In this document: positions 3,230 through 63,982 of the stretch, piece after piece
How the letters are laid out: the number at the start of each line of letters is the position of its first letter
How positions within the stretch are numbered: the first letter of the stretch is position 1
Origin: Verrucomicrobiota bacterium
GTDB lineage: Bacteria > Verrucomicrobiota > Verrucomicrobiia > Limisphaerales > UBA1412
Length of the DNA: 64,000 nt
Assembly: GCA_023230105.1 (NCBI GenBank)
Contig: JALNXY010000001.1
Span: forward strand, 76,395 to 140,394
Reading direction: 5' to 3'
Notes under the pieces: generated by a model
The model's database searches: none
What the model was told of the DNA's origin: nothing
The model's input: the letters and a program-made list of their open reading frames with translations, nothing else
Made by a program: the position numbers and the translations under genes

Positions 3230-3260
3230 TTAACCGCAGATTACGCAGATTCGCGCAGAA
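3230..3260 (+). repeat. iteron-like motif TTAACCGCAGATTACGCAGATTCGCGCAGAA (distal boundary of array A)
   Basis: Three CGCAGAT-like units spaced 9-10 bp apart. Same orientation as the copy at 6410-6440. Confidence 0.8.
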
Positions 3261-3263
3261 GCA

Positions 3264-3650
3264 TCATTCAATTTTTCCCGTTTGGCCATTAATTTTAACT
3301 GCATTTTTTTTAAGAGCCCTATAATTCAAGGAAAGTGTCCCAAATGTATCCGCAATATAGTAAAATGAAGTATCGTGAAAACAAATCCAGTGATGTTTCA
3401 TTGATAACTTTTTACTTTCTGCAGCTCTTTTAAAAGCATTTGCAGGTGAAATATTAAATCCTGATGGAGGCTCCATTTCTTCTGGTGGCCATTCTTTTGA
3501 GTTATTCCATACCTCATTTAAGGCTTCTGTTTGTGCATCAGATTTGACATAACAACGATGACATCCTGTTTGTAATATGAATAATATTAAAATTAAAAAT
3601 AAGCGAAATAAATAATTAATAAAGTCTCTATTTTTCATTGTAATTTTCAA
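3264..3650 (-). CDS. array A cassette: small secreted/lipoprotein, PepSY-like pattern
   Basis: AT-rich ORF with a hydrophobic N-terminus ending LQTGC. The pattern ...ISPANAFKRAAES...YYI...AVKINGQTGKI resembles PepSY domains (weak). Overlaps the upstream cassette by 23 nt. Confidence 0.55.
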   Translation of the reverse strand: MKITMKNRDFINYLFRLFLILILFILQTGCHRCYVKSDAQTEALNEVWNNSKEWPPEEMEPPSGFNISPANAFKRAAESKKLSMKHHWICFHDTSFYYIADTFGTLSLNYRALKKNAVKINGQTGKIE

Positions 3651-4746
3651 TATTGTCTACTGAATGCAATAATTCTGTTTCATATGACTGAAAAATTATT
3701 TCTACTTTTTTATCAGAAAATCCAACCTTTGTTTTATAAAGTGATAAAGGAAACTCAAAATAAAATAATTCGTTTTGATTATCTGACCATCCAATCCATT
3801 CGTGGGCTAAGTAGTTTCTCCAGTCTTCCCACTCCAGAATCCTGGAAGTTTCTTTGTCTCTAATAATCACTCGTAGCTCACCCATACTGTGCGGATTTAT
3901 ATAACCAGAAATAAAATAATCTTCAGATGAACTAATTTCTCTGAGTTCTTCAAAATTTTCAACTCCTTTTATATAAATATTATTAACATTAAAATTATTT
4001 AATTTATTATTATTTTCAATAATAGATTTATTATTATACAATTCTTTAACAAGATATTCTGTATTATTTTCTTTTATTAAAGAAAATAATTTTGCAATTT
4101 TTTCTAATACCTTGTTTGTAATTTTTCTTTCTTTTATAAATGAACTTTCGTGAATATTTAAACTAATGCCGTCAGAAATTAAAATTAATAACGTTGAATC
4201 ATATTCTTTTATTTCCGACTCTCGTTGATTAGTATAATCTTCTGGCAAGAAAAAAAGTCGGACATTTTCGTCTGACGCCTTAGCAGAAGTAAATAAAAAA
4301 TTTTCAATCCAATAGTTCTCTTCTTGCAGACGACGGTAAACCTGTGTTTCTAATCCACATTTATTTGGATCAATTAAAAAATTAATCTCACACTGGACTA
4401 TATCATTTGAAACGTATGAAAATTTATCATCCAAATCTTTAAAAGGATTTTCTAACATCTGAGTGGTTTTTTCGTCTTTGATGAGTTCCAGAGGATTTCT
4501 ATATTCTGCTGTTATCCCATATCCGTTTGAAACATACCACTCTCTGGATGCGCAAAGAAACCAAAATAAAAATTTCTTTTCAAATGATGAAAATTTTTCA
4601 AATGATGAAAATTCTGAAGGTATTTTAATATCTACATATTCAGAATCTTTTTGCCATTCAAACGGATTTTCATCTTCTGATATTGTTTCTTTTTTGCATC
4701 CTAATATAAAACAAAACAATAAAACAATAAGTAATATATTTTTCAT
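3628..4746 (-). CDS. array A cassette: hypothetical lipoprotein (372 aa)
   Basis: Lipobox MKNILLIVLLFCFILGCKKE. Long uninterrupted ORF in very AT-rich DNA. No recognisable catalytic motif. Confidence 0.7.
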   Translation of the reverse strand: MKNILLIVLLFCFILGCKKETISEDENPFEWQKDSEYVDIKIPSEFSSFEKFSSFEKKFLFWFLCASREWYVSNGYGITAEYRNPLELIKDEKTTQMLENPFKDLDDKFSYVSNDIVQCEINFLIDPNKCGLETQVYRRLQEENYWIENFLFTSAKASDENVRLFFLPEDYTNQRESEIKEYDSTLLILISDGISLNIHESSFIKERKITNKVLEKIAKLFSLIKENNTEYLVKELYNNKSIIENNNKLNNFNVNNIYIKGVENFEELREISSSEDYFISGYINPHSMGELRVIIRDKETSRILEWEDWRNYLAHEWIGWSDNQNELFYFEFPLSLYKTKVGFSDKKVEIIFQSYETELLHSVDNIENYNEK

Positions 4747-4791
4747 ATTTTATAACTCATTTTTAGATTATTAAAAAAATGCTTCCTTCTA

Positions 4792-4932
4792 CTACTTGCA
4801 GCATTCAAAACCACTTGGATTCGAGTAACTGCCCGGGATGATCCCGTTCGCGGCGTCAACCACCAGCAGTTCATTTACCGCACCGCCAAACGCGCCTGAC
4901 AAATGTCCACAATTTATATTTTGCTGATTCAT
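4792..4932 (-). other. 46-codon ORF on a GC-rich patch inside array A, possible decayed Rhs-core fragment
   Basis: My translation: MNQQNINCGHLSGAFGGAVNELLVVDAANGIIPGSYSNPSGFECCK*. GAFGGAVNELLVVDAANG loosely resembles the Rhs-core AGGVGGLLxVxDAxxG segment. It is below the 60-aa cutoff of the ORF track. Confidence 0.3.
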
Positions 4933-4978
4933 TTTCTAACAGCGGAATTTATGTTTATTGACGGAGTACTTAAAAAAT

Positions 4979-5524
4979 TTATTTCCAAATACAGGAGCGG
5001 GTGTAAACAGTATTCTTGCTATGATCAATAACCACAATTAAATGGTACTCCCATTCACTGAGTTCTTTTGAAATACTTTGATCTCTAAAATAAAAGACTG
5101 CATCTTTATCTGGAATTTCTTTTAGCCACCATTCGGGAGGATTGGGATTGTTTCCATATAGAGATTTTGTTAAAAAGTCTATTTCATTATAATTTTTTTC
5201 ATGAAAAAACAGCGAATCATTTTTAGTCCATCCCTCCAAACTAAAAATCTTGTCGAGACAATTACTGTCATAATTGAACATCATCCACCGAGATGCTGTA
5301 TCTCCAACTGAAACCATTTTTACATAGATTTTCCCTAGTTTTTCAGAAGGATCCAACCCGAATTCCTGCTTAAAGGCCGGTGACTGCCCCGGATCATCCG
5401 TGTACTCAGAAGTGCTGAAATACACATAGGCTAAATATAAAAAAACAATAAATCCCAGTACAATAACCAGACAACCTATTGAAGACTTTTTAAGCATTGA
5501 AGTATTAAAATTTAATTGTTTCAT
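4979..5524 (-). CDS. array A cassette: N-terminally anchored hypothetical protein (181 aa from internal ATG)
   Basis: ATG at 5522-5524 gives MKQLNFNTSMLKKSSIGCLVIVLGFIVFLYLAYVY (TM anchor). The upstream 54 codons of the tracked ORF run out of frame through the GC-rich Rhs stub and are unlikely to be translated. Confidence 0.65.
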   Translation of the reverse strand: MKQLNFNTSMLKKSSIGCLVIVLGFIVFLYLAYVYFSTSEYTDDPGQSPAFKQEFGLDPSEKLGKIYVKMVSVGDTASRWMMFNYDSNCLDKIFSLEGWTKNDSLFFHEKNYNEIDFLTKSLYGNNPNPPEWWLKEIPDKDAVFYFRDQSISKELSEWEYHLIVVIDHSKNTVYTRSCIWK

Positions 5525-5738
5525 ACCATTCAAAGATTTGAGTAGTTGAATTGGGTGAATAGTAGCGATAGCGGTAGTAGACGAGGTCGGTTTCGTTGTC
5601 GGTGTATTTGGTCGAGAACTGGAAGGGGTCGACCTTTGCCATATCGACCACCGAGCAGAAAACTTCCCCAAAGGGTCCGTACTCATATTTCGCCGAGATA
5701 TTCCCGTCCGTCGCCAAGTGCAGATTACTTTGCCACAT
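5505..5738 (-). pseudogene. Rhs/YD-repeat core C-terminal stub (no toxin domain)
   Basis: ...LATDGNISAKYEYGPFGEVF...DPFQFSTKYTDNETDLVYYRYRYYSP matches the Rhs-associated core consensus YxYxPFGE...FRFSTKYxDxETGLxYYGxRYYxP. The GC-rich patch (~5535-5735) is flanked on both sides by AT-rich DNA. Only 15 AT-rich codons follow YYSP before the stop. Confidence 0.8.
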
Positions 5739-6138
5739 TATTATTTTTTATTATTTCATTATTTATTATTTTTATAATTTCTAAAATATTACTTTTAGAG
5801 TTTTCTGATGTTTCTTTATTTAAAATAAATTCAAGTTCTTGAATGGAATTCGTTCCAAATCGATCTAAAATTAAACCAGCTAAACAGACTCTTTCTGACA
5901 ATGTATCCGCATTTGCTGTTAGATGTAAATATACCTGATTCCAATATTTTGCATCTCTTTCCAGAGTCATGTTTACCATTACAATCCGCTTAAGAGGATC
6001 TTTCTCATGCTGAAGAGCATATTTATCATACCAATCAATTAATTTATATGGCAAAGAAGTACTGAGAGCTATAAGAAATATTATAGAAATTAAAAGAATT
6101 ATAAAATTTTTACTTATAAACTTATTACTAATTTTCAT
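5725..6138 (-). CDS. array A cassette: N-terminally anchored hypothetical protein (137 aa)
   Basis: MKISNKFISKNFIILLISIIFLIALS TM anchor. AT-rich. First full cassette after the leader. Confidence 0.65.
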   Translation of the reverse strand: MKISNKFISKNFIILLISIIFLIALSTSLPYKLIDWYDKYALQHEKDPLKRIVMVNMTLERDAKYWNQVYLHLTANADTLSERVCLAGLILDRFGTNSIQELEFILNKETSENSKSNILEIIKIINNEIIKNNNVAK

Positions 6139-6150: not shown

Positions 6151-6288
6151 TCACATCATTCTTTGAAAAGGGCTGACATTTATTTTAACTTTAACCGGGA
6201 CGCCACTGGAAGGATTCTTCGGAAGGCACCACGTATAGGAGCGCTCCAGAGCACCATTACCATCCGTCGTTGTCAGCAGATCAGTCAC
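6151..6288 (-). pseudogene. YD-repeat stub fused to the array A leader (GTG...NVTDLLTTTDGNGALERSYTW...)
   Basis: My translation from GTG 6288: VTDLLTTTDGNGALERSYTWCLPKNPSSGVPVKVKINVSPFQRMM*. VTDLLxxxDGNGxxxxxYxW is a YD-repeat pattern. The GC-rich part ends where the AT-rich tail begins. Confidence 0.55.
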
Positions 6289-6409
6289 GTTAGAATTCGT
6301 TTATATTTCGGGCATTTTGAGTTTACAAAGGTTCTTCGACATTTACACAATAATTACATCAGTGATTGTGGATGATTTTCGAAGGGATGCAATGTTTTTT
6401 CAAATTTTT
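6289..6409 (-). promoter_or_regulatory. conserved array leader, copy A: palindrome CACAAT-N13-ATTGTG plus promoter TTGTAA-17 nt-TATAAA
   Basis: The - strand reads ...cctTTGTAAactcaaaatgcccgaaaTATAAAcgaattctaacGTGact (-35 at 6323-6328, -10 at 6300-6305). Near-identical to 34103-34225 and clearly related to 59086-59212. Confidence 0.65.
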
Positions 6410-6440
6410 TTAACCGCAGATGACGCAGATTTGCACAGAT
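6410..6440 (+). repeat. iteron-like motif TTAACCGCAGATGACGCAGATTTGCACAGAT (proximal boundary of array A)
   Basis: Direct repeat of 3230-3260. The same motif recurs about 12 times in the window. Confidence 0.8.
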
Positions 6441-7011
6441 TTTTATTGGAGGGATGAACGGATGCGACCCCTACGGGGTCGTGGAAGAATGTGTGGGGGA
6501 TGTGTCTTACCCGGGGTCTACGACCCCGGGCTATGGGGATGGGTATGCTCCGCATACCTTAAGTTTGCTGCACCCCCGTGGGGTGCAGTAGGGAATTGAC
6601 GCGTGGAACCTTGGACCTGGAGACCACCGGGCACGAATCCCGATAGGGAAAAGTCCCGTGTTATGAGATGGGTATGCTCCGCATACCTCAAGAATGCGCA
6701 TCCCGGCGGATGCGGGAGAATACGATTCACACCTGTGGAAATACAAACGAATCCGCAGACCTCAGATTTGCTGCACCCCGAAAGGGGTGCAGAAGAAAAC
6801 AATTCGCACCGGAGGGAATACAAAACGCATTCGCATACCTCCTAATTCAGCATCCCGTAGGGATGCCAGCCTATAGCCCGGGGTCGCAGACCCCGGGGAA
6901 TCGGCCACCACCCAAGACCCCATTCGACCCTGGAGGGGTCGCATCCATACCTTGCTTAAAAAACAGGCACCCCGAAAAGGGAATATTGAGGAAGAGAAGG
7001 ATCCGCCGTTT
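6441..7011. repeat. mosaic of short GC-rich hairpin modules (REP/BIME-like)
   Basis: Recurrent palindromes: gcgaccccTACggggtcg, cccggggtcNNNgaccccggg, gggtatgctccgcatacc, ctgcaccccNNNggggtgcag, gcatcccNNNNgggatgc. The same modules occur in different order at 15583-16088, 17600-17788, 32773-33150, 34257-34665 and 58857-59052. Confidence 0.85.
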
Positions 7012-7032
7012 TTAACCGCAGATTACACAGAT
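7012..7032 (+). repeat. short (two-unit) iteron-like motif TTAACCGCAGATTACACAGAT
   Basis: Closes the hairpin mosaic in the same orientation as 6410-6440. Confidence 0.6.
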
Positions 7033-15492: not shown

Positions 15493-15513
15493 TCGCGCAT
15501 CGCCTCGAAATCT

Positions 15514-15576
15514 AACCACAGATGACGAAGCTTCAACCGCAGACGACGAAGCTTCAACCGCAGATGACGCAGATTC
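15514..15576 (+). repeat. 21-bp tandem triplication of the iteron-type unit
   Basis: aaccacagatgacgaagcttc / aaccgcagacgacgaagcttc / aaccgcagatgacgcagattc. Confidence 0.85.
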
Positions 15577-16088: not shown

Positions 16089-16143
16089 AAAATCTGCGTT
16101 CATCTGCGTCATCTGCGGTTAAAAAAACGTTCTCTGCGGTTAA
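16089..16143 (-). repeat. iteron-like motif (aaatctgcgttcatctgcgtcatctgcggttaa) plus a partial extra copy; proximal boundary of array B
   Basis: Reverse complement of the TTAACCGCAGATGACGCAGA... motif. It has the same position and orientation relative to the cassettes as in arrays A, C and D. Confidence 0.8.
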
Positions 16144-16200
16144 AAAACATTGCATCCCCTCAAAAATCATCCACAATGTCCGATAGAATTATTGTGTGGA
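16144..16200 (+). promoter_or_regulatory. conserved array leader, copy B (truncated: palindrome part only)
   Basis: aacattgcatcccctcaaaaatcatcCACAATgtccgatagaattATTGTGt matches the first ~55 nt of leaders A and C, then diverges before the promoter part. Confidence 0.55.
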
Positions 16201-16224
16201 TACGAATAATACTGAAGTAAGTGA

Positions 16225-16569
16225 ATGAGAAATCGTTGGGAAAAAATATTGCTGGTCATCCAGATAATTTCAGGGGGTCTAATCAGTGCTGGTTTGGGCC
16301 TTGCATTTATATTTTCTAATCTAGATGAAGAATGTTTTCTAGTAGAAATAATGCGTATTATTCTAATCCCGTCTGAGATTTTTATAAATATGTGGTGGTA
16401 CACTTGGCATCTTCCACCTCATGGAGACGCAGGTTTTGTAATGATATTACTCGTTCCACCGGTGCAATTATTTCTGATGGGATGTTTTCTTTCTTGGTTG
16501 ATTATTTATCTACTGAAGAGGAAAGCTAAAAGAGCATCACGAGATGGAAAAACACATCATTCAAAATAG
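16225..16569 (+). CDS. array B cassette: small multi-TM protein (114 aa)
   Basis: AT-rich ORF with 3-4 hydrophobic segments and a basic C-terminal tail. Confidence 0.6.
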   Translation: MRNRWEKILLVIQIISGGLISAGLGLAFIFSNLDEECFLVEIMRIILIPSEIFINMWWYTWHLPPHGDAGFVMILLVPPVQLFLMGCFLSWLIIYLLKRKAKRASRDGKTHHSK

Positions 16570-16665
16570 TATTCCTATTGCATATCAAGGGAGACGCATT
16601 GCGAATCCGAGACAAAGAGAATAAAAGAAGCGGCGGAGTCCATTTCCCGGCTATTCATTACCGTA

Positions 16666-17034
16666 ATGACATATATGAGTTTCATTTTTATACTTCTTAT
16701 TCCGGTTTTTTGTTACGGAATTCCAATGCTGATCGGGCTTTTGGGAGAGGTTTGGCTTCTCAAAATTCAGGTAAAACGAGAACTAGTAATTTCCTGTTGT
16801 GTGCCAATAATTTTGTGGTTGATTATGGTTTCTTTTTTCGTGGGGAAATCGCTATCGAATGCGATTTGGGAACCTGTGATTTTGGCGGGGGCAATCTTAG
16901 TATTAATCTTTGCTTATGGGATAATAACAAGACTTAAACTTATGGAAACTGGTTTCTTAGGAATGGCTTTGATTGCAATGTCTGTAGTCACGACCATTGC
17001 TGTCCTGCTTCATGTTCCAGCATTTCCAGAATGA
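16666..17034 (+). CDS. array B cassette: small 4-TM protein (122 aa)
   Basis: Coherent four-helix hydrophobic pattern. Preferred over the overlapping 16578-16937 ORF, which starts in GC-richer stub-like DNA. Confidence 0.6.
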   Translation: MTYMSFIFILLIPVFCYGIPMLIGLLGEVWLLKIQVKRELVISCCVPIILWLIMVSFFVGKSLSNAIWEPVILAGAILVLIFAYGIITRLKLMETGFLGMALIAMSVVTTIAVLLHVPAFPE

Positions 17035-17079
17035 AAACTCGGAAGAATTAAGAGAAAACTTTTAGGACCAAAAAATCAA

Positions 17080-17268
17080 ATGATTGTTACACAGATCAAA
17101 AGATTAAATAAAGAACAGTGCCATAAAATATGGATTGTGAAGTATATTTCCATGCCGCTTCTTAGTCTTTTTACAATTCTTGTTTGTTTGTCAGGATGTA
17201 ATGATTCTGTAGGATGGATAAATGTTTGGTGGAATGAGGAATCATTTAACGTAGGGATAATTCCCTAA
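17080..17268 (+). CDS. array B cassette: small lipoprotein (62 aa)
   Basis: Lipobox LSLFTILVCLSGCNDS. Confidence 0.45.
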   Translation: MIVTQIKRLNKEQCHKIWIVKYISMPLLSLFTILVCLSGCNDSVGWINVWWNEESFNVGIIP

Positions 17269-17277
17269 ATAAGATAT

Positions 17278-17598
17278 ATGAAACAGATATTTATAATCTT
17301 TTTTGTTTTGGGTATAGCTTGCACTATATTCGGTTATTTCGGCGAGCAAAATGTTAAAAGCATAAAAAAAGATACAGAAAGTAAATTACTATTATTATCA
17401 GAGGCGGAGTCGGTAATCTGGAGTGAGGCAAAAAAAGAAGTGCGTAGTACTTTAATGCAAATTCATTTTTCGCCAATATCAAAGAAAATTGAAAGATCAT
17501 ATAATAGTATTTTTATTTTTGGGATTTTGTCATCTATTCCTTTGGGTGTATACAGTTTGCGGAAACTTTACTTGAACATACTGAGACCGAAGAAGTAG
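17278..17598 (+). CDS. array B cassette: small 2-TM protein (106 aa)
   Basis: N-terminal TM (IFIIFFVLGIACTIFGYF) and C-terminal TM (IFIFGILSSIPLGVY). Confidence 0.55.
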   Translation: MKQIFIIFFVLGIACTIFGYFGEQNVKSIKKDTESKLLLLSEAESVIWSEAKKEVRSTLMQIHFSPISKKIERSYNSIFIFGILSSIPLGVYSLRKLYLNILRPKK

Positions 17599-17599
17599 T

Positions 17600-17788
17600 T
17601 TTTTTGTTCTTAAAACGTAATTTGCTGCACCCCGGAAGGGGTACAGTGGGAAGAGGCGTGTGCCCTCCGGGCTCGGAGTCAGATAGGGAAAAATTCCGGG
17701 CTATGAGATGGTCATGGAGGCAGATGGGCACGGAACCTTTGCTGACGGATGCGACCCCGATGGGGTCGCATCCGACTTCCCTTCTAAA
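17600..17788. repeat. hairpin-module mosaic at the 3' end of array B
   Basis: ctgcaccccggaaggggtacag, gtgtgccctccgggc, gatgcgaccccgatggggtcgcatc modules. Confidence 0.8.
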
Positions 17789-17821
17789 AAATCTGTGCAA
17801 ATCTGCGACATCTGCGGTTAG
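17789..17821 (-). repeat. iteron-like motif (aaatctgtgcaaatctgcgacatctgcggtta); distal boundary of array B
   Basis: Same orientation as 16089-16122, so the two copies are a direct repeat bracketing array B. Confidence 0.8.
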
Positions 17822-18010
17822 ATAGGCGCAAATATTTTAAGGGATAAACTCCATGTTGGCTCAAAATAACATCTTTGGGCTGATTCTCTTCTTGCAAATA
17901 ACGTCCATTACCGTAGGATAATGGGCCGCGGGGTTCGGCTTCCGTTTTTCTGAAGTACCATGTGTGTTTCGGCAAAGAGTCTTGGGAAGTCGTATTCTGC
18001 GGGAAGGTTT

Positions 18011-32740: not shown

Positions 32741-32772
32741 TTAACCGCAGATGACGCAGATTCGCACAGATT
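32741..32772 (+). repeat. iteron-like motif TTAACCGCAGATGACGCAGATTCGCACAGATT; distal boundary of array C
   Basis: Same orientation as 34226-34256, so the two copies are a direct repeat bracketing array C. Confidence 0.8.
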
Positions 32773-33150
32773 ATTTAGAGGGGATGAATGGATGCGACCC
32801 CTCCGGGGTCGTAAAATGTTGTGGGGGCATCGGGTCCCCGGGGTCTTCGACCCCGGGCTATGGGCTGGCATCCCTCCGGGATGCTGAATTAGGAGGTCTG
32901 CTTCGCATACCTCGGGGTTCGTGCATAGAGGTCTCTATGCCGGGCTCTCCCCATGCCCAGAGGGCGCACGCCCAGCTGTCTCCGCGCCCGGAGGGCACAC
33001 ACCTTTTCCCACTGCACCCCTTCCGGGGTGCAGCAAATTAAGGTATGCGGAGCATACCCATCCCCCTAGCCCGGGGTCGCAGACCCCGGGGAAACATCCA
33101 TCCCACGCCCCCACCCGACCCTGTAGGGGTCGCATCCACTCTTGAATCCT
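32773..33150. repeat. hairpin-module mosaic at the 3' end of array C
   Basis: gatgcgacccctccggggtcg, ccccggggtcttcgaccccggg, gcatccctccgggatgc, ctgcaccccttccggggtgcag, ggtatgcggagcatacc, cccggggtcgcagaccccggg, gaccctgtaggggtcgcatcc. Confidence 0.85.
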
Positions 33151-33255
33151 TTTCTCTGTGATATGGGGGCGTTCATTTCTTCATCTTCACTCACTCTGAA
33201 CTTTTTTCTAACTTTTTGGAGCCATTGTATTCAGGTACAATTTTCAGAATGTCAT

Positions 33256-33780
33256 TCATTCTAACAACTCATCCCAATTAATTTCCATCCACTCCGACAA
33301 TTCCTCCTCGCAAAGGGGAACAACCATACCCTTTTTATCCCTCTTAAATACTGTTGCCGGGTTCCCTTTATCATCAAATAAGACTATTGTTTCAAATAAA
33401 GCGTCTCCGTTTTCGTCACACTCCATCATCATAACTTTGTCATCTAAACGATAGCTATGTGTAACTACTCTTCTATTCCCATCAACAGTCGAGAAAAGCG
33501 TCTTTTTTCCACCTTGAAAATGAAAATATACAGTAAGAACAAGATCAAATTTCCCATTATCCTTGACGGAAACCTCTGTTTTTCGACTGAAAAGAGCATC
33601 ATCAATAAACACCTCTGTAACACGTTTGTACTGACCATATTCTCTTGATTCTACAACCTTTGTTTCTTCTTTTAAGCGGTTGGCCGCAACTGATTCTGTT
33701 TGTGTATGCAATCTATTCATGCATCCACCAAGAAAGAAACAGCATAATAATACTCCAATAATAATCCCGTTAAATTTCAT
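33256..33780 (-). CDS. array C cassette: hypothetical lipoprotein (174 aa)
   Basis: MKFNGIIIGVLLCCFFLGGCMN lipobox. AT-rich. No catalytic motif. Confidence 0.65.
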   Translation of the reverse strand: MKFNGIIIGVLLCCFFLGGCMNRLHTQTESVAANRLKEETKVVESREYGQYKRVTEVFIDDALFSRKTEVSVKDNGKFDLVLTVYFHFQGGKKTLFSTVDGNRRVVTHSYRLDDKVMMMECDENGDALFETIVLFDDKGNPATVFKRDKKGMVVPLCEEELSEWMEINWDELLE

Positions 33781-33796
33781 AATTTTATTTATTATG

Positions 33797-34093
33797 CTAC
33801 ATTTTACACAATATGCCTATTATGAGAATTAACAAAGTAAATATATAAAAAACAAGGCTAATCCAAGGCTTTCCGACCGGATAAATCAACTTTTGTAAAA
33901 GTCTTATTACGCTGTAAACAACGGCTCCTGCTACACTACATATACAAGGCACAAATACACCTAACAGTCCATAAGCAGGATGGACGAGCTTCCCCGTATC
34001 CCAGCTTAGGATTTGTATATAAGAAATCGGTGTTAATAAAGCAAAAGGTATCAATGCCGCAATCGCAACGTATTTCATCTCAATTTTTTTCAT
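33797..34093 (-). CDS. array C cassette: small 3-TM protein (98 aa from ATG 34093)
   Basis: MKKIEMKYVAIAALIPFALL... with three hydrophobic segments. Begins 9 nt after the conserved leader end (aacGTGact). Confidence 0.6.
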   Translation of the reverse strand: MKKIEMKYVAIAALIPFALLTPISYIQILSWDTGKLVHPAYGLLGVFVPCICSVAGAVVYSVIRLLQKLIYPVGKPWISLVFYIFTLLILIIGILCKM

Positions 34094-34102
34094 AACAGTC
34101 AC

Positions 34103-34225
34103 GTTATAATTCGTTTATATTTTGGGCATTTTGAGTTTACAAAGGGTATCCACGATTTACACAATAATTACACCCGGCATTGTGGATGATTTTCAAGGGG
34201 ATGCAATGTTTTTTTCAAATTATTT
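34103..34225 (-). promoter_or_regulatory. conserved array leader, copy C: palindrome CACAAT-N13-ATTGTG plus promoter TTGTAA-17 nt-TATAAA
   Basis: -35 at 34137-34142 and -10 at 34114-34119 on the - strand. Near-identical to 6289-6409. Confidence 0.65.
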
Positions 34226-59052: not shown

Positions 59053-59084
59053 AAATCTGCGCTCATCTGCGTAATCTGCGGTTA
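59053..59084 (-). repeat. iteron-like motif (aaatctgcgctcatctgcgtaatctgcggtta); proximal boundary of array D
   Basis: Directly precedes the A-rich spacer and leader D. Confidence 0.8.
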
Positions 59085-59085
59085 G

Positions 59086-59212
59086 AAAAAAATCGAAAAA
59101 AACATTGTAAAACATCGAAACTCATTCACAATACCGTATGTAATTTTTTGCGTAAATGTTGGAGCACCTTACTAAACTCAAAATGCCCGAAATATAATTG
59201 AATTTCAACGTG
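59086..59212 (+). promoter_or_regulatory. conserved array leader, copy D: promoter TACTAA-17 nt-TATAAT
   Basis: ...accttactaaactcaaaatgcccgaaaTATAATtgaatttcaacGTGact, with -10 at 59193-59198. Aligns with leaders A and C over ~125 nt. The palindrome is degenerate here. Confidence 0.6.
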
Positions 59213-59308
59213 ACTGATCTGCTAAACATGAGGGATACGACAGGGTCCGGGTACGGATACACCCCCTTGAATATACGAGAGATGCCTGAAAAAGGGTATA
59301 ATTTGTAA
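59210..59308 (+). other. 32-codon ORF starting at the conserved GTG (VTDLLNMRDTTGSGYGYTPLNIREMPEKGYNL*), YD-like stub
   Basis: Shares aacGTGACTGATCTGCT (NVTDLL) with array A. GC-rich patch. The stop overlaps the ATG of the first cassette. Confidence 0.35.
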
Positions 59309-59802
59309 TGAAAATATTTAAAATAAATTTAATTAAATCATTATTAATTTTAATATTCCCACTCATTATGCTGAGTGGGTGTGAAAAATACTATGAGGAG
59401 CTTGATAAAAAGCGAACTGAAGAGTTAAAATGCTGCGGTGAATTAAATATAATTTCTTTAAGAATATACAACGAATTTAAATACAATCAGAAAAAACCGG
59501 ATAGTATAAATAGATTGTGTCAAGTGTTTAAAGAAGATGGACAGCTTTCGTTCTTTGAATCTTATGGGCTAGAAAACCTTTATTTTAATCAAGATATCGA
59601 GCTATGGACTCATAGGGTAGATTATTATAATTCAACTAATATAGATTTTTTGACAGATAACAAAGATAATGAAATAAGAAAATTGGCTATCGCTTTAAAA
59701 ATAGAACCTGAAAAATATTTGGGAATAAGATTTGACGGTACATGGTGCAAGACAAACACACTTTCCCCGGAATTACATAATATCCTAATTGAACAAGAGT
59801 AA
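59308..59802 (+). CDS. array D cassette 1: hypothetical lipoprotein (164 aa)
   Basis: Lipobox LILIFPLIMLSGCEKY. AT-rich. Confidence 0.65.
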   Translation: MKIFKINLIKSLLILIFPLIMLSGCEKYYEELDKKRTEELKCCGELNIISLRIYNEFKYNQKKPDSINRLCQVFKEDGQLSFFESYGLENLYFNQDIELWTHRVDYYNSTNIDFLTDNKDNEIRKLAIALKIEPEKYLGIRFDGTWCKTNTLSPELHNILIEQE

Positions 59803-59803
59803 G

Positions 59804-59932
59804 ATGAAAAATATTATCGACAGAGTCCATTTCCCTGCCCTGGACAAATGGCTAAGCAGAGGCCACATCGAAGAACGTGGTGGATTCAATCTCCGTGGTT
59901 TTGTGAATGATGATTCAGTGAATAAACAGTGA
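59804..59932 (+). pseudogene. Rhs core-end stub (MKNIIDRVHFPALDKWLSRGHIEERGGFNLRGFVNDDSVNKQ*)
   Basis: Position-for-position match to the Rhs core end RYYxPxxGRWLSRDPIxExGGxNLYxFVxNxPVNxxD with decayed residues. GC-rich patch between AT-rich cassettes. Stops before any toxin domain. Confidence 0.75.
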
Positions 59933-59951
59933 ATACTTAAAAAATATATTT

Positions 59952-60635
59952 ATGATTGAATTATTTAAAGATTTGATTATATTTGTTTTTACATTGTTTT
60001 ACAAAATAATATTTTTTATAATTGTTATTATTTTTCTTATATTTTCATTTGCTTTAAAATTCATTATTACTATTATCCTCCTTCCGTTAGCTTTGTTTTT
60101 AAGTGACCCTGAAGTAGATGCTGTTGATGTTATTGGAACATGGATTCCAGGAGAGCAGACATCTTTCGATATAACAAATAAAACATGTCAAATTATCTTT
60201 AATAAAGATGGAACGTTTGAAGGTTATTTTCCTTCTCCAGTGGTTCATTTCTCTGGAGTGGATGCCGGACAATGGAGCAATAGAGAAGATCGTGAAACAA
60301 TGTGTTATGGAATCGGCGACTGGTATATGGAACCAGTTAAAGAAGACGATGATTATTATGACAAATACAATAAAAAATATTTAGAAGGAGGATACCAAAA
60401 AGGTAATCAGATATCGTTATATTTTCGGGAAGTTGATGGTGATAGTTCTAAATCGATTGCTACTTGTTTATATATTCAATCCACCGCAGATTCTACCTTT
60501 TGGCAAGAGACTCAATTCAATCTTTTATCAAAATGTGAGAACTTCGATCTTTATTTTGGAATTGGGGACCCGGATTCCAGAAATAAGTTTAACTTTAAAA
60601 AGACAAGAGCCGTTGAGGAAGATAAGAAGGAGTAA
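59952..60635 (+). CDS. array D cassette 2: membrane-anchored hypothetical protein (227 aa)
   Basis: Two N-terminal hydrophobic segments followed by a soluble domain. Confidence 0.65.
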   Translation: MIELFKDLIIFVFTLFYKIIFFIIVIIFLIFSFALKFIITIILLPLALFLSDPEVDAVDVIGTWIPGEQTSFDITNKTCQIIFNKDGTFEGYFPSPVVHFSGVDAGQWSNREDRETMCYGIGDWYMEPVKEDDDYYDKYNKKYLEGGYQKGNQISLYFREVDGDSSKSIATCLYIQSTADSTFWQETQFNLLSKCENFDLYFGIGDPDSRNKFNFKKTRAVEEDKKE

Positions 60636-60647
60636 TGCTAAAGGCTA

Positions 60648-60722
60648 AGCAGAGACACGATCGAAGACCGCGGTGGATTCAATCTCTGTGGTTTTGTGAA
60701 TGATGATTCGGTGAATAAATGG
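60648..60722 (+). pseudogene. Rhs core-end stub, second copy (LSRDTIEDRGGFNLCGFVNDDSVNKW*)
   Basis: Near-identical at the DNA level to 59858-59932 (ggctaagcagag.cac.atcgaaga..g.ggtggattcaatctc.gtggttttgtgaatgatgattc.gtgaataaa). Closer to the LSRDPIEE consensus. Confidence 0.75.
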
Positions 60723-60730
60723 TAGATATT

Positions 60731-61276
60731 ATGAAAAAATTAAAGAAAATAAAAGTCTTATTTAAGTGGGTTAGTATTTTAATACTGCTATTGGTTCTAA
60801 TTGTTAGCGGATACATAGTGTATAACTTTATTGATTATTCTAAGAATAATCATAAAAAACTTTTCCGGAGCTATATAAATCCCATTCCTTCAACAATTGT
60901 TTTCGTTGATTCCGGGGTTTCGGGAATTATGGAACCATGGCAATTCCATTACGTGCAGTTAACACCTCAAAATTTCGATGATATTCTCAAATATCATCAG
61001 TATAGAAAAATTGATGAGCTTTCAGATGATGAGATAAAATCAATTGCAGATCCATCGGAGGAAGAATTTTTGGCTACTGAATACAAAAAGAATAGATATA
61101 ATAATTTTATTCGTTATTATAAAAACTTTGATATGAAATTTAAACTTCCATTTGATGTTAATAAAATAGATTTGTATGAGATATATTATAGAACAGATGT
61201 TTCAAATTCATATCATATTTTTCTAATTGTCAATCGCGAACATTCAGAATTGCTCGCACTTTATACACATATGTAA
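60731..61276 (+). CDS. array D cassette 3: N-terminally anchored hypothetical protein (181 aa)
   Basis: MKKLKKIKVLFKWVSILILLLVLIVSGYIVY anchor. ATG 60731 preferred over the tracked upstream start. Confidence 0.65.
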   Translation: MKKLKKIKVLFKWVSILILLLVLIVSGYIVYNFIDYSKNNHKKLFRSYINPIPSTIVFVDSGVSGIMEPWQFHYVQLTPQNFDDILKYHQYRKIDELSDDEIKSIADPSEEEFLATEYKKNRYNNFIRYYKNFDMKFKLPFDVNKIDLYEIYYRTDVSNSYHIFLIVNREHSELLALYTHM

Positions 61277-61423
61277 CAATGAAAGTTCTGCATAAAAGAC
61301 TCAAAAGGACTACATGAACGCCCAACTATCAGGCAGAGAAGGATTCAAGTGTGGATGCGCCCCCCTACAGGGGCGGGTGTGGCCGTGGGGTGGATTAATG
61401 CGTGGGCACATACAGATGATGTT

Positions 61424-61948
61424 ATGAAAAAGAATATTCAATCAGTACTTTTAGTGAGCGCAGGAATAATGGTTTTGTTGTTTTTGATTATTCCCGCGTT
61501 ATATACACCAACAGTCAAAGCTCCTTATCCTCAGACTTATGGCTCCCTTAAGCGACTTGGATTCTGGGTTAAACAATCCGAGCTTGATAATAAAACTTCA
61601 ATAGTTGATCTTATTAGGGACGCTGCGGTATCTTCTGAGTTTAATCTCCGAGAACAATTTTTTCATATGCTTCAAAATGACCTTGGGATCGATAATGATT
61701 CATTATCTATAATTGAGAAGTCAAAAAAAGATGGCTGGGGAATTCCTTTCAACATAGATTACACGACAAATATTAGTGGGCTTTCAAAAGAACTATTTAA
61801 TTCATTGAGCACATGTTCTATCGTGATATGGTCGAACGGGCCCAACCATGAAGATGAAAAATGTCTCGGCGATGACATTCCGTGGCCAATATCTGAACTG
61901 GAGTTGCATTTAGATGAATATCTCGAACTACTTCGAAAAAGAAGATAA
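61424..61948 (+). CDS. array D cassette 4: N-terminally anchored protein with GspG-like C-terminal domain
   Basis: MKKNIQSVLLVSAGIMVLLFLIIPALY anchor without a G/FTLIE prepilin site. DGWGIPFNIDY...IVIWSNGPNHEDEKCLGDDIPW parallels the GspG pattern DPWG..Y......S.GPDG....DDI.NW. Confidence 0.6.
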   Translation: MKKNIQSVLLVSAGIMVLLFLIIPALYTPTVKAPYPQTYGSLKRLGFWVKQSELDNKTSIVDLIRDAAVSSEFNLREQFFHMLQNDLGIDNDSLSIIEKSKKDGWGIPFNIDYTTNISGLSKELFNSLSTCSIVIWSNGPNHEDEKCLGDDIPWPISELELHLDEYLELLRKRR

Positions 61949-62019
61949 TCAAATACCTGAATTTTTCGACGTGGTCCGTAATATTACGGCAGGTATGGGG
62001 CCCCCGGCTACTTACTTGA

Positions 62020-62130
62020 AATATCTCTTACGATAGCTGGAACCTGGTGCACTCCTATGCGTGGGGATTGGATGCCGGTGGGAGCATGCAGGGAGCCGGG
62101 GGAATAAAAATGAGAAAGGAAAGAGAATGA
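62020..62130 (+). pseudogene. Rhs core internal stub (...NLVHSYAWGLDAGGSMQGAGGIKMRKERE*)
   Basis: YxWGxDxxGSxQGAGG(VGGLL) is a recurrent block of Rhs-associated core domains. GC-rich patch ~62040-62105. The stop overlaps the ATG of cassette 5. Confidence 0.6.
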
Positions 62131-62531
62131 AGAAGATTTTGTGGCAAGGGATTCCTTGGGTAATTCTGGTGTGCCTATGTTTCGTTTTTTGGATTGTAAA
62201 AGAATTGATGACAATAAGAGATTGGCCTTTAAGTTCTGGTACCATAAAAATAGAAAAAGTATCTATCGGAGAAAGAAACTTTATTCTGATCGATGGCGAA
62301 CCTATGAATTATTTAGCTCAAGTGCAATCTATTAACGTGGAGTTAGATAGCTCACTAAATGAAGTGAAGGTTAACCGATACAGAATTTTTTGGTGCCCCT
62401 TTACTGAAATCACGGTCAACAATCAATTTCCCATTTTGTATTCAATTGATGGATGGAAGCCAGGAAAATACTCCGTGGTTTATGGATCTGAGACAGGAGA
62501 TGTTTTAGCAGGCGAATTCGAGATTCCTTGA
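62127..62531 (+). CDS. array D cassette 5: N-terminally anchored hypothetical protein (134 aa)
   Basis: MKKILWQGIPWVILVCLCFVFWIV anchor then a beta-rich-looking domain. ATG 62127 preferred over the tracked start in the GC-rich stub. Confidence 0.6.
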   Translation: MKKILWQGIPWVILVCLCFVFWIVKELMTIRDWPLSSGTIKIEKVSIGERNFILIDGEPMNYLAQVQSINVELDSSLNEVKVNRYRIFWCPFTEITVNNQFPILYSIDGWKPGKYSVVYGSETGDVLAGEFEIP

Positions 62532-62780
62532 GATAGCGTGCACCAGAATGAAGCAAAAGCTCAGAGAGAATGAAGAACCAACTATCAGGCAGAGAAGGAT
62601 TCAAGTGTGGATGCGCCCCCTCCAGGGCGGGTGTGGCCTAATCGACGGAATGACCGGTGCACCGCAGATGACATAGTACAGGGAATCCCATATAGCGTGA
62701 TAAAGAAAGATGAAGAGGTTTCTTTGCGAAAATTACGAGAAGTGTATACAGGCCCACAATATTGATAATTTAATATAAAT

Positions 62781-63095
62781 ATGAAAAGAATTTATTTATT
62801 GGCTTTATCTGCATCCGCGGCGTGTTTATTTCTTTCCTACCTCTTTATCCGGTATCTAACAATGCCGCTTGTGAAGATATTTGTAACACCGCAGACTCTA
62901 GTCTGGAACTCTGAAACAAATAAATATGACCCAGTTTGGACCATGGGAGAAATGGAGAAAATAGGGGACTTTGTTCAAATAGAGTCTATGATTGCGATTG
63001 CATTATCGCTAATCGTGTTTTTTGGAGTTGTATTTGTTGGACGAAGGAATAAAAGGAAGGGAAGTAGAGCGGAAGAATCAAAAATCAAAATGTAA
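62781..63095 (+). CDS. array D cassette 6: small 2-TM protein (104 aa)
   Basis: Two hydrophobic segments and a basic tail. Confidence 0.55.
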   Translation: MKRIYLLALSASAACLFLSYLFIRYLTMPLVKIFVTPQTLVWNSETNKYDPVWTMGEMEKIGDFVQIESMIAIALSLIVFFGVVFVGRRNKRKGSRAEESKIKM

Positions 63096-63106
63096 ATATT
63101 TTTATT

Positions 63107-63982
63107 ATGAAAATAATTAAATGGTTTTTAAAGTTTTTCGCATATTTTTTTCTGCTACTTGTTTTCATAATATTTGTCTCTATATGTCTTTCTGTATTGA
63201 ATATTTTTAGGAATTTACCTTTTGAGCCATCTCAAATTAAATCTGTCACATTTTACTGTGTGGACCCTTTCGATCTCATGGATTATGAAGGGTACCTCAC
63301 TTACATAGAGCCTTATTCTTACAAGCTCAGTTTGGAAGAGGCCCAACTGCTATTCAAGGAAACACAAGGAAATATCCATACAGGCTGGAAGGGTGGAAGG
63401 TTTCTCGGGGTAGTAGAGCTTGAAAATGGAAAAAGATACGATATGGCCATGGGTATGATGTCCGATTATAAGGTTTTACATAAGGGACTCCATATGCGTT
63501 TCAGTGGTGAGTCCGCTGCTCTGTATGAGGAGTTATCGGGAAAACTATATGGGGATTGTCAACCGTTGTTAAAATCCAAAATAGGATTGAATCAAATTAA
63601 AAAGAATTTAGACATTTTAGAAAAGGGCGGTGAATATTCTTTAGAGGAGCTATTTGGGAACGAGAAGGAAAGTCTGGAAATCAATCGTCAGTTAAGCAAA
63701 ATTTTTCAAACGTCAACCAATGAGGATGGGGGGAATATCTTCCATACCTCTGAAATATCGGTAAAAGATGGTCTCCTTTGCGATGCTTATGAAACACCAC
63801 TTTTTTTTACAAGTGGGAGCAAGGAATGGGCTTCAAAAGTCAATCCACTCATGAAGCCTATGAGCGAAAACTTTTTTGTTTGGTCCTCCGGGAAAAATCA
63901 ATCTAACGAGTTTGGATTTGGAGATGACATCTTTTTCCCAAAAACCCGATTCGAGCCCTTTGTCATACATCTAAGCTGGTAA
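63107..63982 (+). CDS. array D cassette 7: N-terminally anchored protein with GspG-like C-terminal motif (291 aa)
   Basis: MKIIKWFLKFFAYFFLLLVFIIFVSICLSVL anchor. C-terminal FFVWSSGKNQSNEFGFGDDIFFP resembles the pseudopilin S.G.....E.G.GDDI motif. Confidence 0.6.
   Translation: MKIIKWFLKFFAYFFLLLVFIIFVSICLSVLNIFRNLPFEPSQIKSVTFYCVDPFDLMDYEGYLTYIEPYSYKLSLEEAQLLFKETQGNIHTGWKGGRFLGVVELENGKRYDMAMGMMSDYKVLHKGLHMRFSGESAALYEELSGKLYGDCQPLLKSKIGLNQIKKNLDILEKGGEYSLEELFGNEKESLEINRQLSKIFQTSTNEDGGNIFHTSEISVKDGLLCDAYETPLFFTSGSKEWASKVNPLMKPMSENFFVWSSGKNQSNEFGFGDDIFFPKTRFEPFVIHLSW

What the first reader, a model, noticed from the sequence alone, without database searches (positions are those of the whole stretch)
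6289..6409. Conserved ~120-bp leader carrying a sigma70-like promoter and an upstream palindrome at the head of each array
Read in the gene direction, copies A (6289-6409, -), C (34103-34225, -) and D (59086-59212, +) align over about 125 nt: aacattgcatcccYtYgaaaatcatcCACAAT-N13-ATTGTGtaaat-N9-cctTTGTAAactcaaaatgccc(g/a)aaaTATAAAcgaattNtaacGTGact.
- TTGTAA-17 nt-TATAAA (TATAAT in D) is close to the sigma70 consensus.
- The 6-bp palindrome arms are conserved while the 13-nt spacer varies. That is the signature of a protein-binding operator or an RNA stem.
- Copy B (16144-16200) keeps only the palindrome half.
- Conservation stops exactly at aacGTGact, after which each array continues with different DNA.

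This looks like a portable promoter module placed in front of unrelated cassettes.
Basis: seen in the sequence. Interest (0 to 1): 0.7.

Follow-up and report, generated by a model that had tools for sequence, protein, structure and literature searches.

The report
Shared head of RHS-derived gene islands
A ~125-base non-coding sequence repeated in a Verrucomicrobial genome is the common head, most likely the promoter region, of several low-GC islands of small orphan genes left over from RHS toxin systems. The islands are insertions next to a repeated ATCTGCG motif.

Summary
The repeat is real. Copies A, C and D are 76-89% identical over about 130 nt, and B is a truncated copy. I collected 14 copies in 4-5 related genomes, all Verrucomicrobiota with Limisphaerales-like relatives.

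Two details of the observation are wrong:
- Conservation does not stop at GTGACT. It continues into a decayed RHS core fragment (VTDLLTTTDG...SYTWGLD.SGSMQGAGG / YGYGPFG).
- It also extends upstream into an (ATCTGCG)n-GTTA motif and GC-rich REP-like hairpins.

The 6-bp palindrome is not supported. 42% of shuffles contain one, its right arm decays, and there is no significant covariation. The RNA fold is weaker than shuffles.

A better candidate is TTGCAT-16-CACAAT. Its hexamers are conserved in all 14 copies while the spacer varies, and truncated copies keep it.

The arrays carry RHS relics, have no recombinase nearby, and differ between strains behind the same leader. An 80%-identical relative has empty sites, and at locus A island A sits exactly at the motif, which is duplicated.

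Verdict: a promoter-bearing head of mobile RHS-orphan (putative immunity) arrays, a new variant of a known kind. Transcription is untested.

The parts
6289..6409 (-). Leader copy A (the finding): AT-rich non-coding head of island A
   Evidence: Alignments. Profile match E = 2e-57. GC 0.306.
6365..6392 (-). Candidate promoter P1': TTGCAT (6392-6387), 16 nt, CACAAT (6370-6365).
   Evidence: Over 14 copies the hexamers hold 5 non-consensus letters of 168, against 27 of 224 in the spacer (Fisher p = 0.0012, copies not independent). The -10 varies only at position 3 (C, T or G). It is kept in all truncated copies.
6300..6328 (-).
   Evidence: Matches 9 of 12 consensus positions but lacks T6, and the scan tool does not list it. 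The -35 varies and the spacer is nearly invariant. It is absent from copies B, E, L007a and G3.
6346..6370 (-). Inverted repeat CACAAT-N13-ATTGTG
   Evidence: 42% of shuffles contain such a repeat. 86.9% of cells pair, with one compensatory change, no different from shuffles.
6411..6448 (-). Head motif of island A: A-run plus ATCTGTGCAAATCTGCGTCATCTGCGGTTA
   Evidence: (family D4). Its left flank is homologous to the left flank of the single motif at the empty site of a relative.
6151..6288 (-). RHS core relic fused to the leader (VTDLLTTTDGNGALERSYTW...), decayed
   Evidence: Longer versions in G1 and G2 run into SYT(W)GLD.SGSMQGAGG(VGGLL).
3264..6138 (-). Cassettes of island A: 137, 172, 372 and 128 aa, all with an N-terminal membrane or lipoprotein signal. 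An interior RHS relic lies at 5535-5729.
   Evidence: ORFs. No Pfam or NCBIfam family for the cassettes. The relic matches TIGR03696 Rhs_assc_core at 33.5 bits against a cut-off of 32.5. GC 0.318.
3231..3250 (-). Tail motif of island A, a direct copy of the head motif
   Evidence: Homology with the relative resumes at 3242.
6431..7032 (.). REP-like GC-rich hairpin array upstream of leader A, with a further motif copy at 7013-7032
   Evidence: GC 0.553.
34103..34225 (-). Leader copy C. Head motif at 34227-34246. The junction to the first cassette lies right after GTGACTG.
32742..34102 (-). Island C: cassettes of 101 and 174 aa (33256-34102), a REP array (32762-33200) and the tail motif (32742-32761)
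   Evidence: The same locus carries different cassettes behind the same leader in L009 and L007.
59065..59212 (+). Head motif (59065-59084) and leader copy D (59086-59212). GTG at 59210.
59210..63982 (+). Island D: a leader-proximal RHS relic (VTDLLNMRDTTGSGYGYTPL), seven cassettes, and interior RHS relics at 59849-59932, 60640-60722 and 62035-62103. It runs off the window. The tail motif is at L015 7937-7968.
16102..16200 (+). Head motif (16102-16121, with an extra CTGCGGTTAAAA unit) and truncated leader B (16144-16200)
   Evidence: The same locus in a 96% strain has a full leader, G1.
16225..17820 (+). Island B: cassettes (16225-17598), REP hairpins and the tail motif (17801-17820)
   Evidence: The whole block 15461-17864 is absent from the 80% relative.

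Best explanation
The element is the conserved non-coding head of RHS-derived orphan gene arrays (putative immunity islands) in a Verrucomicrobial genome.

Each island reads: REP-like hairpins, then the (ATCTGCG)n-GTTA motif, then the ~125-nt AT-rich leader, then a relic of the last ~120 codons of an RHS core, then co-oriented low-GC genes for small envelope proteins separated by further RHS relics, then a second direct copy of the motif.

Shown:
- The anatomy above.
- The RHS relics.
- Strain-to-strain turnover of cassettes behind a constant leader.
- Island A as an insertion at the motif, with the motif duplicated.
- The absence of a nearby recombinase.

Inferred:
- The leader supplies the promoter that transcribes the array. 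The best candidate is TTGCAT-16-CACAAT.
- The well-conserved 3' block plus the RHS relic serves as a homology anchor. Recombination with rhs genes or with other arrays adds or removes cassettes there.
- The cassette products are immunity proteins retained after loss of the toxin domains.
For: - **Repeat and extent:** (14 copies).
- **RHS link:** relics follow the leader in A, D, L007b, L008, L009, L010, F, G1 and G2. The interior relic matches TIGR03696, and its homologues carry PF25023. Core-end relics WLSRGHIEERGGFNLRGFVNDDSVNK precede cassettes in island D.
- **Need for a promoter:** arrays C, D and E face divergent upstream genes. The leader is the only AT-rich conserved block between them.
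- **P1' conservation pattern:**
- **Truncated copies:** B, E and L007a keep the 5' half and abut an ATG 15-30 nt later.
- **Lineage parallel:** a housekeeping promoter footprint has the same -35 and spacing. TTGCAA-16-TAGGAT before rplM is conserved in an 80% relative despite a diverged spacer.
- **Phylum precedent:** Cappable-seq in A. muciniphila, another member of the phylum, shows -35 and TATAAT-type bias and 10% leaderless starts (PMC4782308).
- **Turnover:** locus C in three genomes has the same leader and different cassettes. One difference is a ~590-nt cassette lying between two pieces of RHS relic. Locus B differs between 96%-identical strains.
- **Insertion:** empty sites in a syntenic relative.
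- **No mobility genes:** no recombinase or transposase in 64 kb plus flanks.
Against: - There are no transcription data, so every promoter here is a consensus-level call.
- P1' matches only 7 of 12 E. coli consensus positions.
- The copies are related, so the Fisher test overstates independence.
- Truncated copies could keep the 5' half merely because rearrangements come from the cassette side.
- No cassette protein matches a known immunity family, and homologues are almost absent.
- One structure prediction was too poor to use (pLDDT 55).
- No full-length rhs gene was found in the window or the fetched loci.
- A promoter role alone does not explain the strong conservation of the 3' block.
Confidence: 0.55

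Rival explanations
1. One reading: TTGTAA-17-TATAAA is the active sigma70 promoter, and the CACAAT-N13-ATTGTG palindrome upstream is an operator or activator site (or an RNA stem) that controls it.
For: - The pair matches 9 of 12 consensus positions with 17-nt spacing in A, C, L007b, L009 and G2.
- The -10 is TATAAT in D and F.
- The -10 lies 11 nt before the GTG, which fits the near-leaderless starts common in A. muciniphila.
- G1 shows one compensatory change in the palindrome.
Against: - The -35 is more variable than the spacer, and the -10 lacks T6 in 7 of 10 copies and is TGTAAA in G1.
- The promoter is missing in B, E and L007a, which still head genes.
- The palindrome occurs in 42% of shuffles. 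Eleven of 84 cells are unpaired, and covariation is no better than shuffles.
- The RNA folds worse than shuffles, z = +1.43.
Confidence: 0.15
2. The leader is mainly a recombination module. The islands are integrative elements that enter the (ATCTGCG)n-GTTA motif by site-specific or Campbell-type recombination. The leader, next to the crossover site, carries binding sites for a recombinase or accessory proteins encoded elsewhere, like the arm of an attP or an attI. Any promoter activity is secondary.
For: - Every island with both ends in hand is bracketed by direct motif copies.
- The empty site in the relative has one motif and the occupied site has two, with the leader starting right after the head copy.
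- The leader has two conserved boxes separated by a variable stretch.
- The same head occurs at five or more loci that are unoccupied, where testable, in the 80% relative.
Against: - No recombinase lies within 64 kb plus flanks (Pfam).
- Motif copies also occur inverted and inside REP arrays.
- At locus B the inserted block includes REPs and several motifs, and the empty site has no motif.
- Cassette junctions behind the leader fall at different positions in different copies.
- Homologous exchange through the flanking repeats gives the same end structure.
Confidence: 0.15
3. The leader is a functionless passenger. It is the leftover upstream end of one ancestral leader-plus-rhs-fragment junction that was copied to several loci together with the arrays, and it is conserved only because the copies are young or homogenised by gene conversion.
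For: - All copies share the same fusion point to the RHS core, which suggests a single origin.
- The element is restricted to one species cluster. The exact 21-nt core pattern hit one of 185,579 species genomes, two contigs from one metagenome sample and no viral contigs.
- The long contiguous 3' block looks more like homogenised DNA than like a set of short functional sites.
Against: - Divergence is very uneven. The middle differs by about 20-40% while the hexamers and the 3' block are nearly invariant.
- Changes in the -10-like hexamer are confined to its least critical position.
- Orthologous leaders at locus C are only about 81-90% identical while flanking core genes are 95-97% identical, so the copies are not simply young.
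- Arrays C, D and E need a promoter from somewhere.
Confidence: 0.1
4. The leader is a 5' UTR with a regulatory job after initiation. The conserved 3' block could be a site for a processive antiterminator, a small RNA or a protein that allows transcription or translation through long AT-rich foreign arrays.
For: - If P1' is the start, the invariant ~55-nt block lies at about +50 to +105 of the transcript.
- The arrays are long, AT-rich and co-oriented.
Against: - No Rfam family matches at any useful score.
- There is no stable or conserved secondary structure.
- Truncated copies lack this block yet still head genes.
Confidence: 0.05

Closest known systems
Orphan rhs toxin/immunity modules behind rhs genes (Enterobacteria; Koskiniemi et al. 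2013, 2014, as cited in PMC8920140) and the 'toxin cassette' arrays of polymorphic toxin loci (Zhang et al. 2012, PMC3482391)
   Same: - Cassettes are preceded by fragments of the conserved RHS core.
- The DNA is AT-rich relative to the genome.
- Content varies between strains.
- Recombination at core homology is the likely way cassettes are exchanged.
   Different: - No full-length rhs gene lies upstream.
- Arrays sit at five or more separate housekeeping loci.
- The toxin domains are gone.
- Each array has its own conserved non-coding head and is bracketed by a repeated motif and REP hairpins.
Polyimmunity loci (Zhang et al. 2012, PMC3482391)
   Same: - Tandem, co-oriented small genes with short spacers, probably one transcript.
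- Content differs between strains.
- Proposed role is pre-emptive immunity.
   Different: - That paper reports usually one locus per genome and extended loci only in Proteobacteria, Bacteroidetes, Firmicutes and Actinobacteria. Here there are several loci in a Verrucomicrobium.
- The genes match no known immunity family.
- The arrays are interrupted by toxin-gene relics.
[quoted passage not shown]
   Same: [quoted passage not shown]
- A conserved non-coding sequence at the head of the array.
- The structure suggests active gene acquisition.
   Different: - No XerD-like recombinase at the head.
- No conserved motif between each pair of genes.
- A different phylum.
- Multiple arrays per genome.
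- RHS relics lie between the genes.
Integron platform (intI, attI, Pc promoter, attC-bounded cassettes)
   Same: A single head element with a promoter reading into promoterless, co-oriented, exchangeable cassettes, with a repeated sequence at the array boundaries.
   Different: - No integrase gene.
- No attC-like site after each cassette. The motif occurs only at the array ends.
- Junctions behind the leader are not at a fixed base.

Membership tests
Sigma70-type promoter | Two hexamers resembling TTGACA and TATAAT, 16-18 nt apart | tested here: met
   P2 TTGTAA-17-TATAAA matches 9 of 12. P1 TTGAAA-17/18-GAAAAT matches 9 of 12. P1' TTGCAT-16-CACAAT matches 7 of 12. These are consensus-level matches only.
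Sigma70-type promoter | Hexamers more conserved than the spacer across copies | tested here: inconclusive
Met for P1': 5 of 168 non-consensus letters against 27 of 224, p = 0.0012. The copies are not independent.
Sigma70-type promoter | A mapped primary transcription start 5-9 nt after the -10 | not testable with these tools
   No transcript data were available for this organism.
RHS orphan toxin/immunity array | Fragments of the RHS repeat-associated core precede the cassettes | tested here: met
   TIGR03696 matches at 33.5 bits, above the cut-off of 32.5. The motifs YEYGPFGE, DLVYYRYRYY, WGLD.SGSMQGAGG and GGFNLRGFV are present.
RHS orphan toxin/immunity array | Array lies downstream of a full-length rhs gene | tested here: not met
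   No long RHS ORF in the window or flanks. The neighbours are housekeeping genes.
RHS orphan toxin/immunity array | Cassette consists of a C-terminal toxin domain plus its cognate immunity gene | tested here: inconclusive
   The relics stop at or before the core end with no toxin domain. The downstream genes have no family assignment.
Polyimmunity locus | Tandem co-oriented genes belonging to known immunity protein families | tested here: not met
   The co-orientation and short spacers are present, but there are no Pfam or NCBIfam immunity hits. One search found only two homologues.
rAID-1 | XerD-family tyrosine recombinase gene at the head of the array | tested here: not met
   No integrase or recombinase domain in any ORF of at least 80 aa scanned across the window.
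rAID-1 | Co-oriented short genes with GC below 41% | tested here: met
   The islands have 32-36% GC against 51% for the window and about 56% for core genes.
rAID-1 | Conserved repetitive intergenic motif between the array genes | tested here: not met
   The leader and motif profile hits only the array ends. Interior spacers hold RHS relics or nothing.
Integron | intI integrase next to attI and Pc | tested here: not met
   No integrase found.
Integron | An attC recombination site at the 3' end of every cassette | tested here: not met
   There is no repeated site between cassettes.
Cis-regulatory RNA or small RNA | Conserved, stable secondary structure with covariation, or a match to a described family | tested here: not met
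   No Rfam match at the gathering threshold. Fold z = +1.43. The consensus structure is only the 6-7 bp hairpin with no compensatory pairs in 7 copies. With 14 copies, one compensatory pair is no better than shuffles.

The most novel reading that the evidence does not exclude
The islands are a recombinase-in-trans gene-capture system. The (ATCTGCG)n-GTTA motif would be the attachment site of a so far unseen site-specific recombinase, and the leader would be the platform (promoter plus recombinase-binding arm). Whole arrays would hop as circles between motif-bearing REP clusters, giving a multi-copy, integron-like immunity platform in Verrucomicrobiota.
Probability: 0.15. Interest if true: 0.8.

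Novelty: new variant of a known kind. Interest (0 to 1): 0.5.

Why it matters
Arrays of orphan immunity genes are thought to shape who can live next to whom in dense microbial communities. How such arrays are expressed and how they spread is known mainly for Bacteroidales, where a recombinase sits at the head of the array.

Here a different phylum has several arrays per genome. Each has the same non-coding head fused to an RHS relic, is embedded in REP-like repeats, and has no recombinase beside it. For island A, clean empty sites exist in a relative.

If the head is the promoter and recombination anchor, three things follow:
- It offers a simple sequence tag for finding such islands in Verrucomicrobial metagenomes.
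- It provides a defined system for testing how immunity arrays are built without a dedicated integrase.
- It may supply a natural promoter part for a poorly tractable phylum.

Tried and rejected
- **Rfam:** nothing at the gathering threshold over the window. Permissive thresholds gave only weak hits of flanking hairpins to Acido-Lenti-1 and to microRNA models.
- **tRNA/tmRNA:** no tRNA or tmRNA gene in the window, so there is no tRNA-type attachment site.
- **RNA structure of the leader:** rejected.
- **Coding reading of the leader:** rejected. There is an in-frame stop and single-base indels between copies.
- **Sigma54 reading of TTGCAT:** considered by eye. The GG-to-GC spacing does not fit.
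- **Collection scans with the 21-nt core:** one species genome, one metagenome sample and no viral contig. The pattern is exact, so divergent copies such as F and G1 are missed.
- **Full-length rhs parent:** the protein search with a composite relic returned only 15 short fragments.
- **Cassette as immunity protein:**
  - The homologue search found two proteins.
  - Pfam and NCBIfam gave nothing except a faint C-type lysozyme inhibitor hint for the 174-aa lipoprotein, E = 0.0045 and far below the cut-off.
  - The AlphaFold model had pLDDT 55, and the Foldseek matches were meaningless.
- **Antisense pseudo-ORF trick:** searching with the antisense ORF over the leader to harvest copies gave one new copy, F.
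- **Exact-protein look-ups of neighbours:** several found nothing.
- **A cysS cluster mate:** this led to an unrelated low-GC contig.
- **Early Bacteroidales/Akkermansia idea:** dropped once record titles and cluster names pointed to Verrucomicrobiota with Limisphaerales-like relatives.

Full report
**Observation.** Identity is 88.5% for A/C, 78% for A/D and 76% for C/D. A profile built from the copies recovers them at E = 1e-50 to 1e-58. Copy B keeps only the 5' half. The repeat is therefore real and far beyond chance.

Two parts of the description do not hold.
- First, conservation continues past GTGACT in every full copy except C. The continuation reads GTGACTGATCTGCTGACAACGACGGATGG and beyond.
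- Second, conservation also continues upstream. It runs through an A-run and two to four ATCTGCG repeats ending in GTTAAAA. That motif has 11 copies in the window against none expected. In B, C, D and L008 it runs further, through a ~130-nt GC-rich hairpin unit.

**More copies and source organism.**
- An exact 21-nt core of the leader occurs in only one of 185,579 species genomes, 'Verrucomicrobia bacterium UBA1412'. It occurs in two contigs from one metagenome sample and in no viral contig.
- Walking out from window genes and from cluster mates gave further copies: E, 9.4 kb left of the window; F; and G1-G3 in a 96% strain. The total is 14 copies.
- Proteins of the window are named Verrucomicrobia/Verrucomicrobiota bacterium. 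Cluster mates at 90% or more are named Limisphaerales or Verrucomicrobiae.

**Context.** The window is about 56% GC in core genes. It holds four low-GC islands of 32-36% GC. Each island starts with a leader and consists of co-oriented small ORFs. Nearly all of these begin with a membrane helix or lipoprotein signal.
- None of the ORFs matches Pfam or NCBIfam. One that was searched has only two homologues in 5.8 billion proteins.
- The islands sit between housekeeping genes such as rplM-rpsI, lgt, a GHMP kinase, glutamate synthase and cysS.
- No recombinase, transposase or regulator is present in the 64 kb or the 10-kb flanks seen.
- All GC-rich REP-type hairpins of the window lie next to islands and nowhere else.

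**The RHS link.**
- The ORF that starts at the leader's GTG reads VTDLLTTTDGNGALERSYTW in A.
- In G1 and G2 it continues SYT(W)GLD.SGSMQGAGG(VGGLL). In L009, L010 and D it continues (Y)GYGPFG.... These are the last YD repeats of an RHS core.
- Interior spacers hold more relics:
  - 5535-5729(-) reads YEYGPFGE...FSTKYTDNETDLVYYRYRYYSPN. It matches TIGR03696 above its cut-off, and its homologues carry PF25023.
  - Two copies of WLSRGHIEERGGFNLRGFVNDDSVNK and one of SYAWGLDAGGSMQGAGG lie in island D.
- No toxin domain survives. The arrays are therefore RHS-derived orphan arrays. That their genes are immunity genes is an inference from this context and from what is known of polymorphic toxin loci (PMC3482391).

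**Is the leader coding or an RNA?**
- The frame of the GTG has a TAA five codons upstream. Copies differ by single-base indels. The leader is therefore not coding on either strand.
- As RNA it folds worse than shuffles, with z = +1.43.
- The only consensus pairing is the 6-7 bp hairpin. It shows no compensatory change in 7 copies. In 14 copies it shows one compensatory change and eleven unpaired cells, no better than shuffles.
- A perfect inverted repeat of that size is present in 42% of shuffles of the leader.
- Rfam gives nothing.

**Promoter candidates.** Three sigma70-like pairs lie in the gene direction.
The -35 is variable: TTGTAA, TTATAA, TACTAA, TTCTGA or ATATAA. The spacer is almost invariant. 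The -10 lacks the key T at position 6 in 7 of 10 copies and is TGTAAA in G1. Its hexamers hold 11 non-consensus letters of 120, against 8 of 170 in the spacer.
- **P1', TTGCAT-16-CACAAT.** This pair shows the pattern expected of a promoter. Its hexamers hold 5 non-consensus letters of 168, against 27 of 224 in the spacer (p = 0.0012, with the caveat that the copies are related).
  - The -10 varies only at its third position.
  - The one change in the -35 (TTGTAA in D) moves toward consensus.
- **Truncated copies.** B, E and L007a keep this half and are joined 15-30 nt later to an ATG. No copy keeps only the 3' half.
- **Need for a promoter.** Arrays C, D and E face divergent upstream genes, so they must have a promoter of their own.
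- **A lineage footprint.** TTGCAA-16-TAGGAT before rplM is conserved in an 80% relative although 9 of 16 spacer bases differ. It shares the -35 core and the spacing of P1'.
- **Precedent in the phylum.** In A. muciniphila, Cappable-seq shows -35 and -10 bias and 10% leaderless starts (PMC4782308).

None of this is a measurement of transcription.

**How the arrays change.** Locus C was compared in three genomes.
- Flanking genes are 95-97% identical, and the leader is present in all three.
- The window has cassettes of 101 and 174 aa.
- L009 has an RHS relic and cassettes of 74, 171 and 213 aa.
- UBA1412 has two leaders in tandem. The first is truncated and drives a large, apparently repeat-containing gene.
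- Homology between the window and L009 ends exactly after GTGACTG.
- L007 and L009 differ by a ~590-nt cassette that lies between two pieces of RHS relic. This is what recombination within relics would produce.

Locus B differs between strains that are 96% identical. One has a full leader plus a long relic. The window has a truncated leader plus a different first cassette. The junctions fall at different bases, which argues for homologous or illegitimate exchange rather than a fixed site behind the leader.

**Empty sites.** A syntenic relative with about 80% DNA identity was found in Limisphaerales MAGs from anaerobic digesters.
- **Locus A.** The relative has only REP hairpins and one motif.
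  - The left flank of that motif matches the left flank of the window's head motif.
  - Homology on the right resumes inside the window's tail motif, at 3242.
  - Island A is therefore leader, cassettes and one extra motif copy, inserted at the 3' edge of the motif.
- **Locus B.** The relative has a 314-nt gap with no REP, motif or leader. The window has 2.4 kb in place of 32 nt.
- **All islands.** Every island with both ends in hand is bracketed by direct motif copies. Inverted motif copies also occur in the REP arrays.
- **Mechanism.** This anatomy fits either Campbell-type or site-specific entry at the motif, or transfer between loci through the flanking repeats. I cannot tell which.

**Comparison with known systems.** The closest functional relatives are:
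- orphan rhs modules and polyimmunity loci (PMC3482391);
- rAID-1 of Bacteroidales (10.1101/471110; 10.1101/2025.05.03.651265);
- in layout, the integron platform.

Membership fails for rAID-1 and integrons because there is no recombinase and no per-cassette site. It fails for classical orphan rhs arrays because there is no full-length rhs upstream and no toxin domains. It fails for polyimmunity loci as defined because there are no known immunity families and the arrays are interrupted by relics.

**Verdict.** The element is a promoter-bearing, portable head of RHS-derived orphan arrays, and the arrays themselves are insertions. I put confidence at about 0.55 for the whole model, and somewhat higher that some promoter lies in the leader.
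- Its specific promoter and operator are the weaker candidates.
- Its claim that conservation ends at GTGACT is wrong.
- What remains unexplained is the very high conservation of the 3' block of the leader and the agent that places islands at the motif.

Noticed in passing
window 43194-45911 (+): A low-GC (37-43%) gene for an MmeI-family type IIL restriction-modification enzyme, with all five MmeI domains. It sits between a T2SS-F gene and cysS, with no leader, motif or REP hairpins.
   Followed up: partly
window ~17880-17910 (+): TTGCAA-16-TAGGAT, about 280 nt before rplM, is conserved in an 80%-identical relative while 9 of 16 spacer bases differ. This is a likely rplM-rpsI promoter footprint with a long 5' leader.
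   Followed up: partly
window 6851-6896 (-), 32838-32883 (+), 34539-34570 (-): Pairs of REP-like hairpins weakly resemble the Rfam family Acido-Lenti-1 RNA, at 19.7-23.5 bits against a gathering score of 37. Probably chance similarity of GC hairpins, but the family comes from a related superphylum.
   Followed up: no
window 58856-59064 (+), 15907-16101 (+), 34247-34460 (-): A ~130-215-nt GC-rich unit with a GTAG...CTAC long hairpin and a CCGCC-TGAA-GGGCGG hairpin is 85-92% conserved upstream of leaders B, C and D, and occurs inverted in the tail of island D. Fold z = -2.95.
   Followed up: partly
window 25000-26400: Several direct repeat families (D1, D2, D7, D9) and Ala-rich small ORFs with a weak apolipoprotein-like match. 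This looks like a duplicated pair of repeat-protein genes.
   Followed up: no
window 28984-31554 (-): An 856-aa protein combines a hydrazine-synthase-alpha middle domain, a PD40 repeat and a cytochrome c motif.
   Followed up: no
window 61314-61364 and 62570-62620 (+); also ~33066-33194 (-): A 51-nt repeat (94% identical) ending in a GC hairpin lies inside island D and recurs at the tail of island C. REP-type hairpins therefore also insert between cassettes.
   Followed up: no
L019 (Logan SRR29243428 contig, 29.8 kb): A cysS at least 90% identical to the window's (local GC 0.53) sits in a contig of 22-31% GC with unrelated neighbours. This is either an assembly chimera or a transferred gene.
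   Followed up: no
L007 ~3990-4292 (-) (UBA1412, locus C): Two leaders lie in tandem in one island. The first is cut after ATGCCCAAAA and sits 18 nt before the ATG of a large, apparently repeat-containing gene, which is followed by REP hairpins, a second motif and a full leader.
   Followed up: partly
window 15490-15575 (-) and L015 7937-7990 (+): A variant of the motif is built from tandem GAAGCTTCGTC(A/G)TCTGCGGTT units. The first bases of leaders F and G2 (GCGCTTGCAT) resemble this unit, so the leader's 5' end may derive from the motif array.
   Followed up: no
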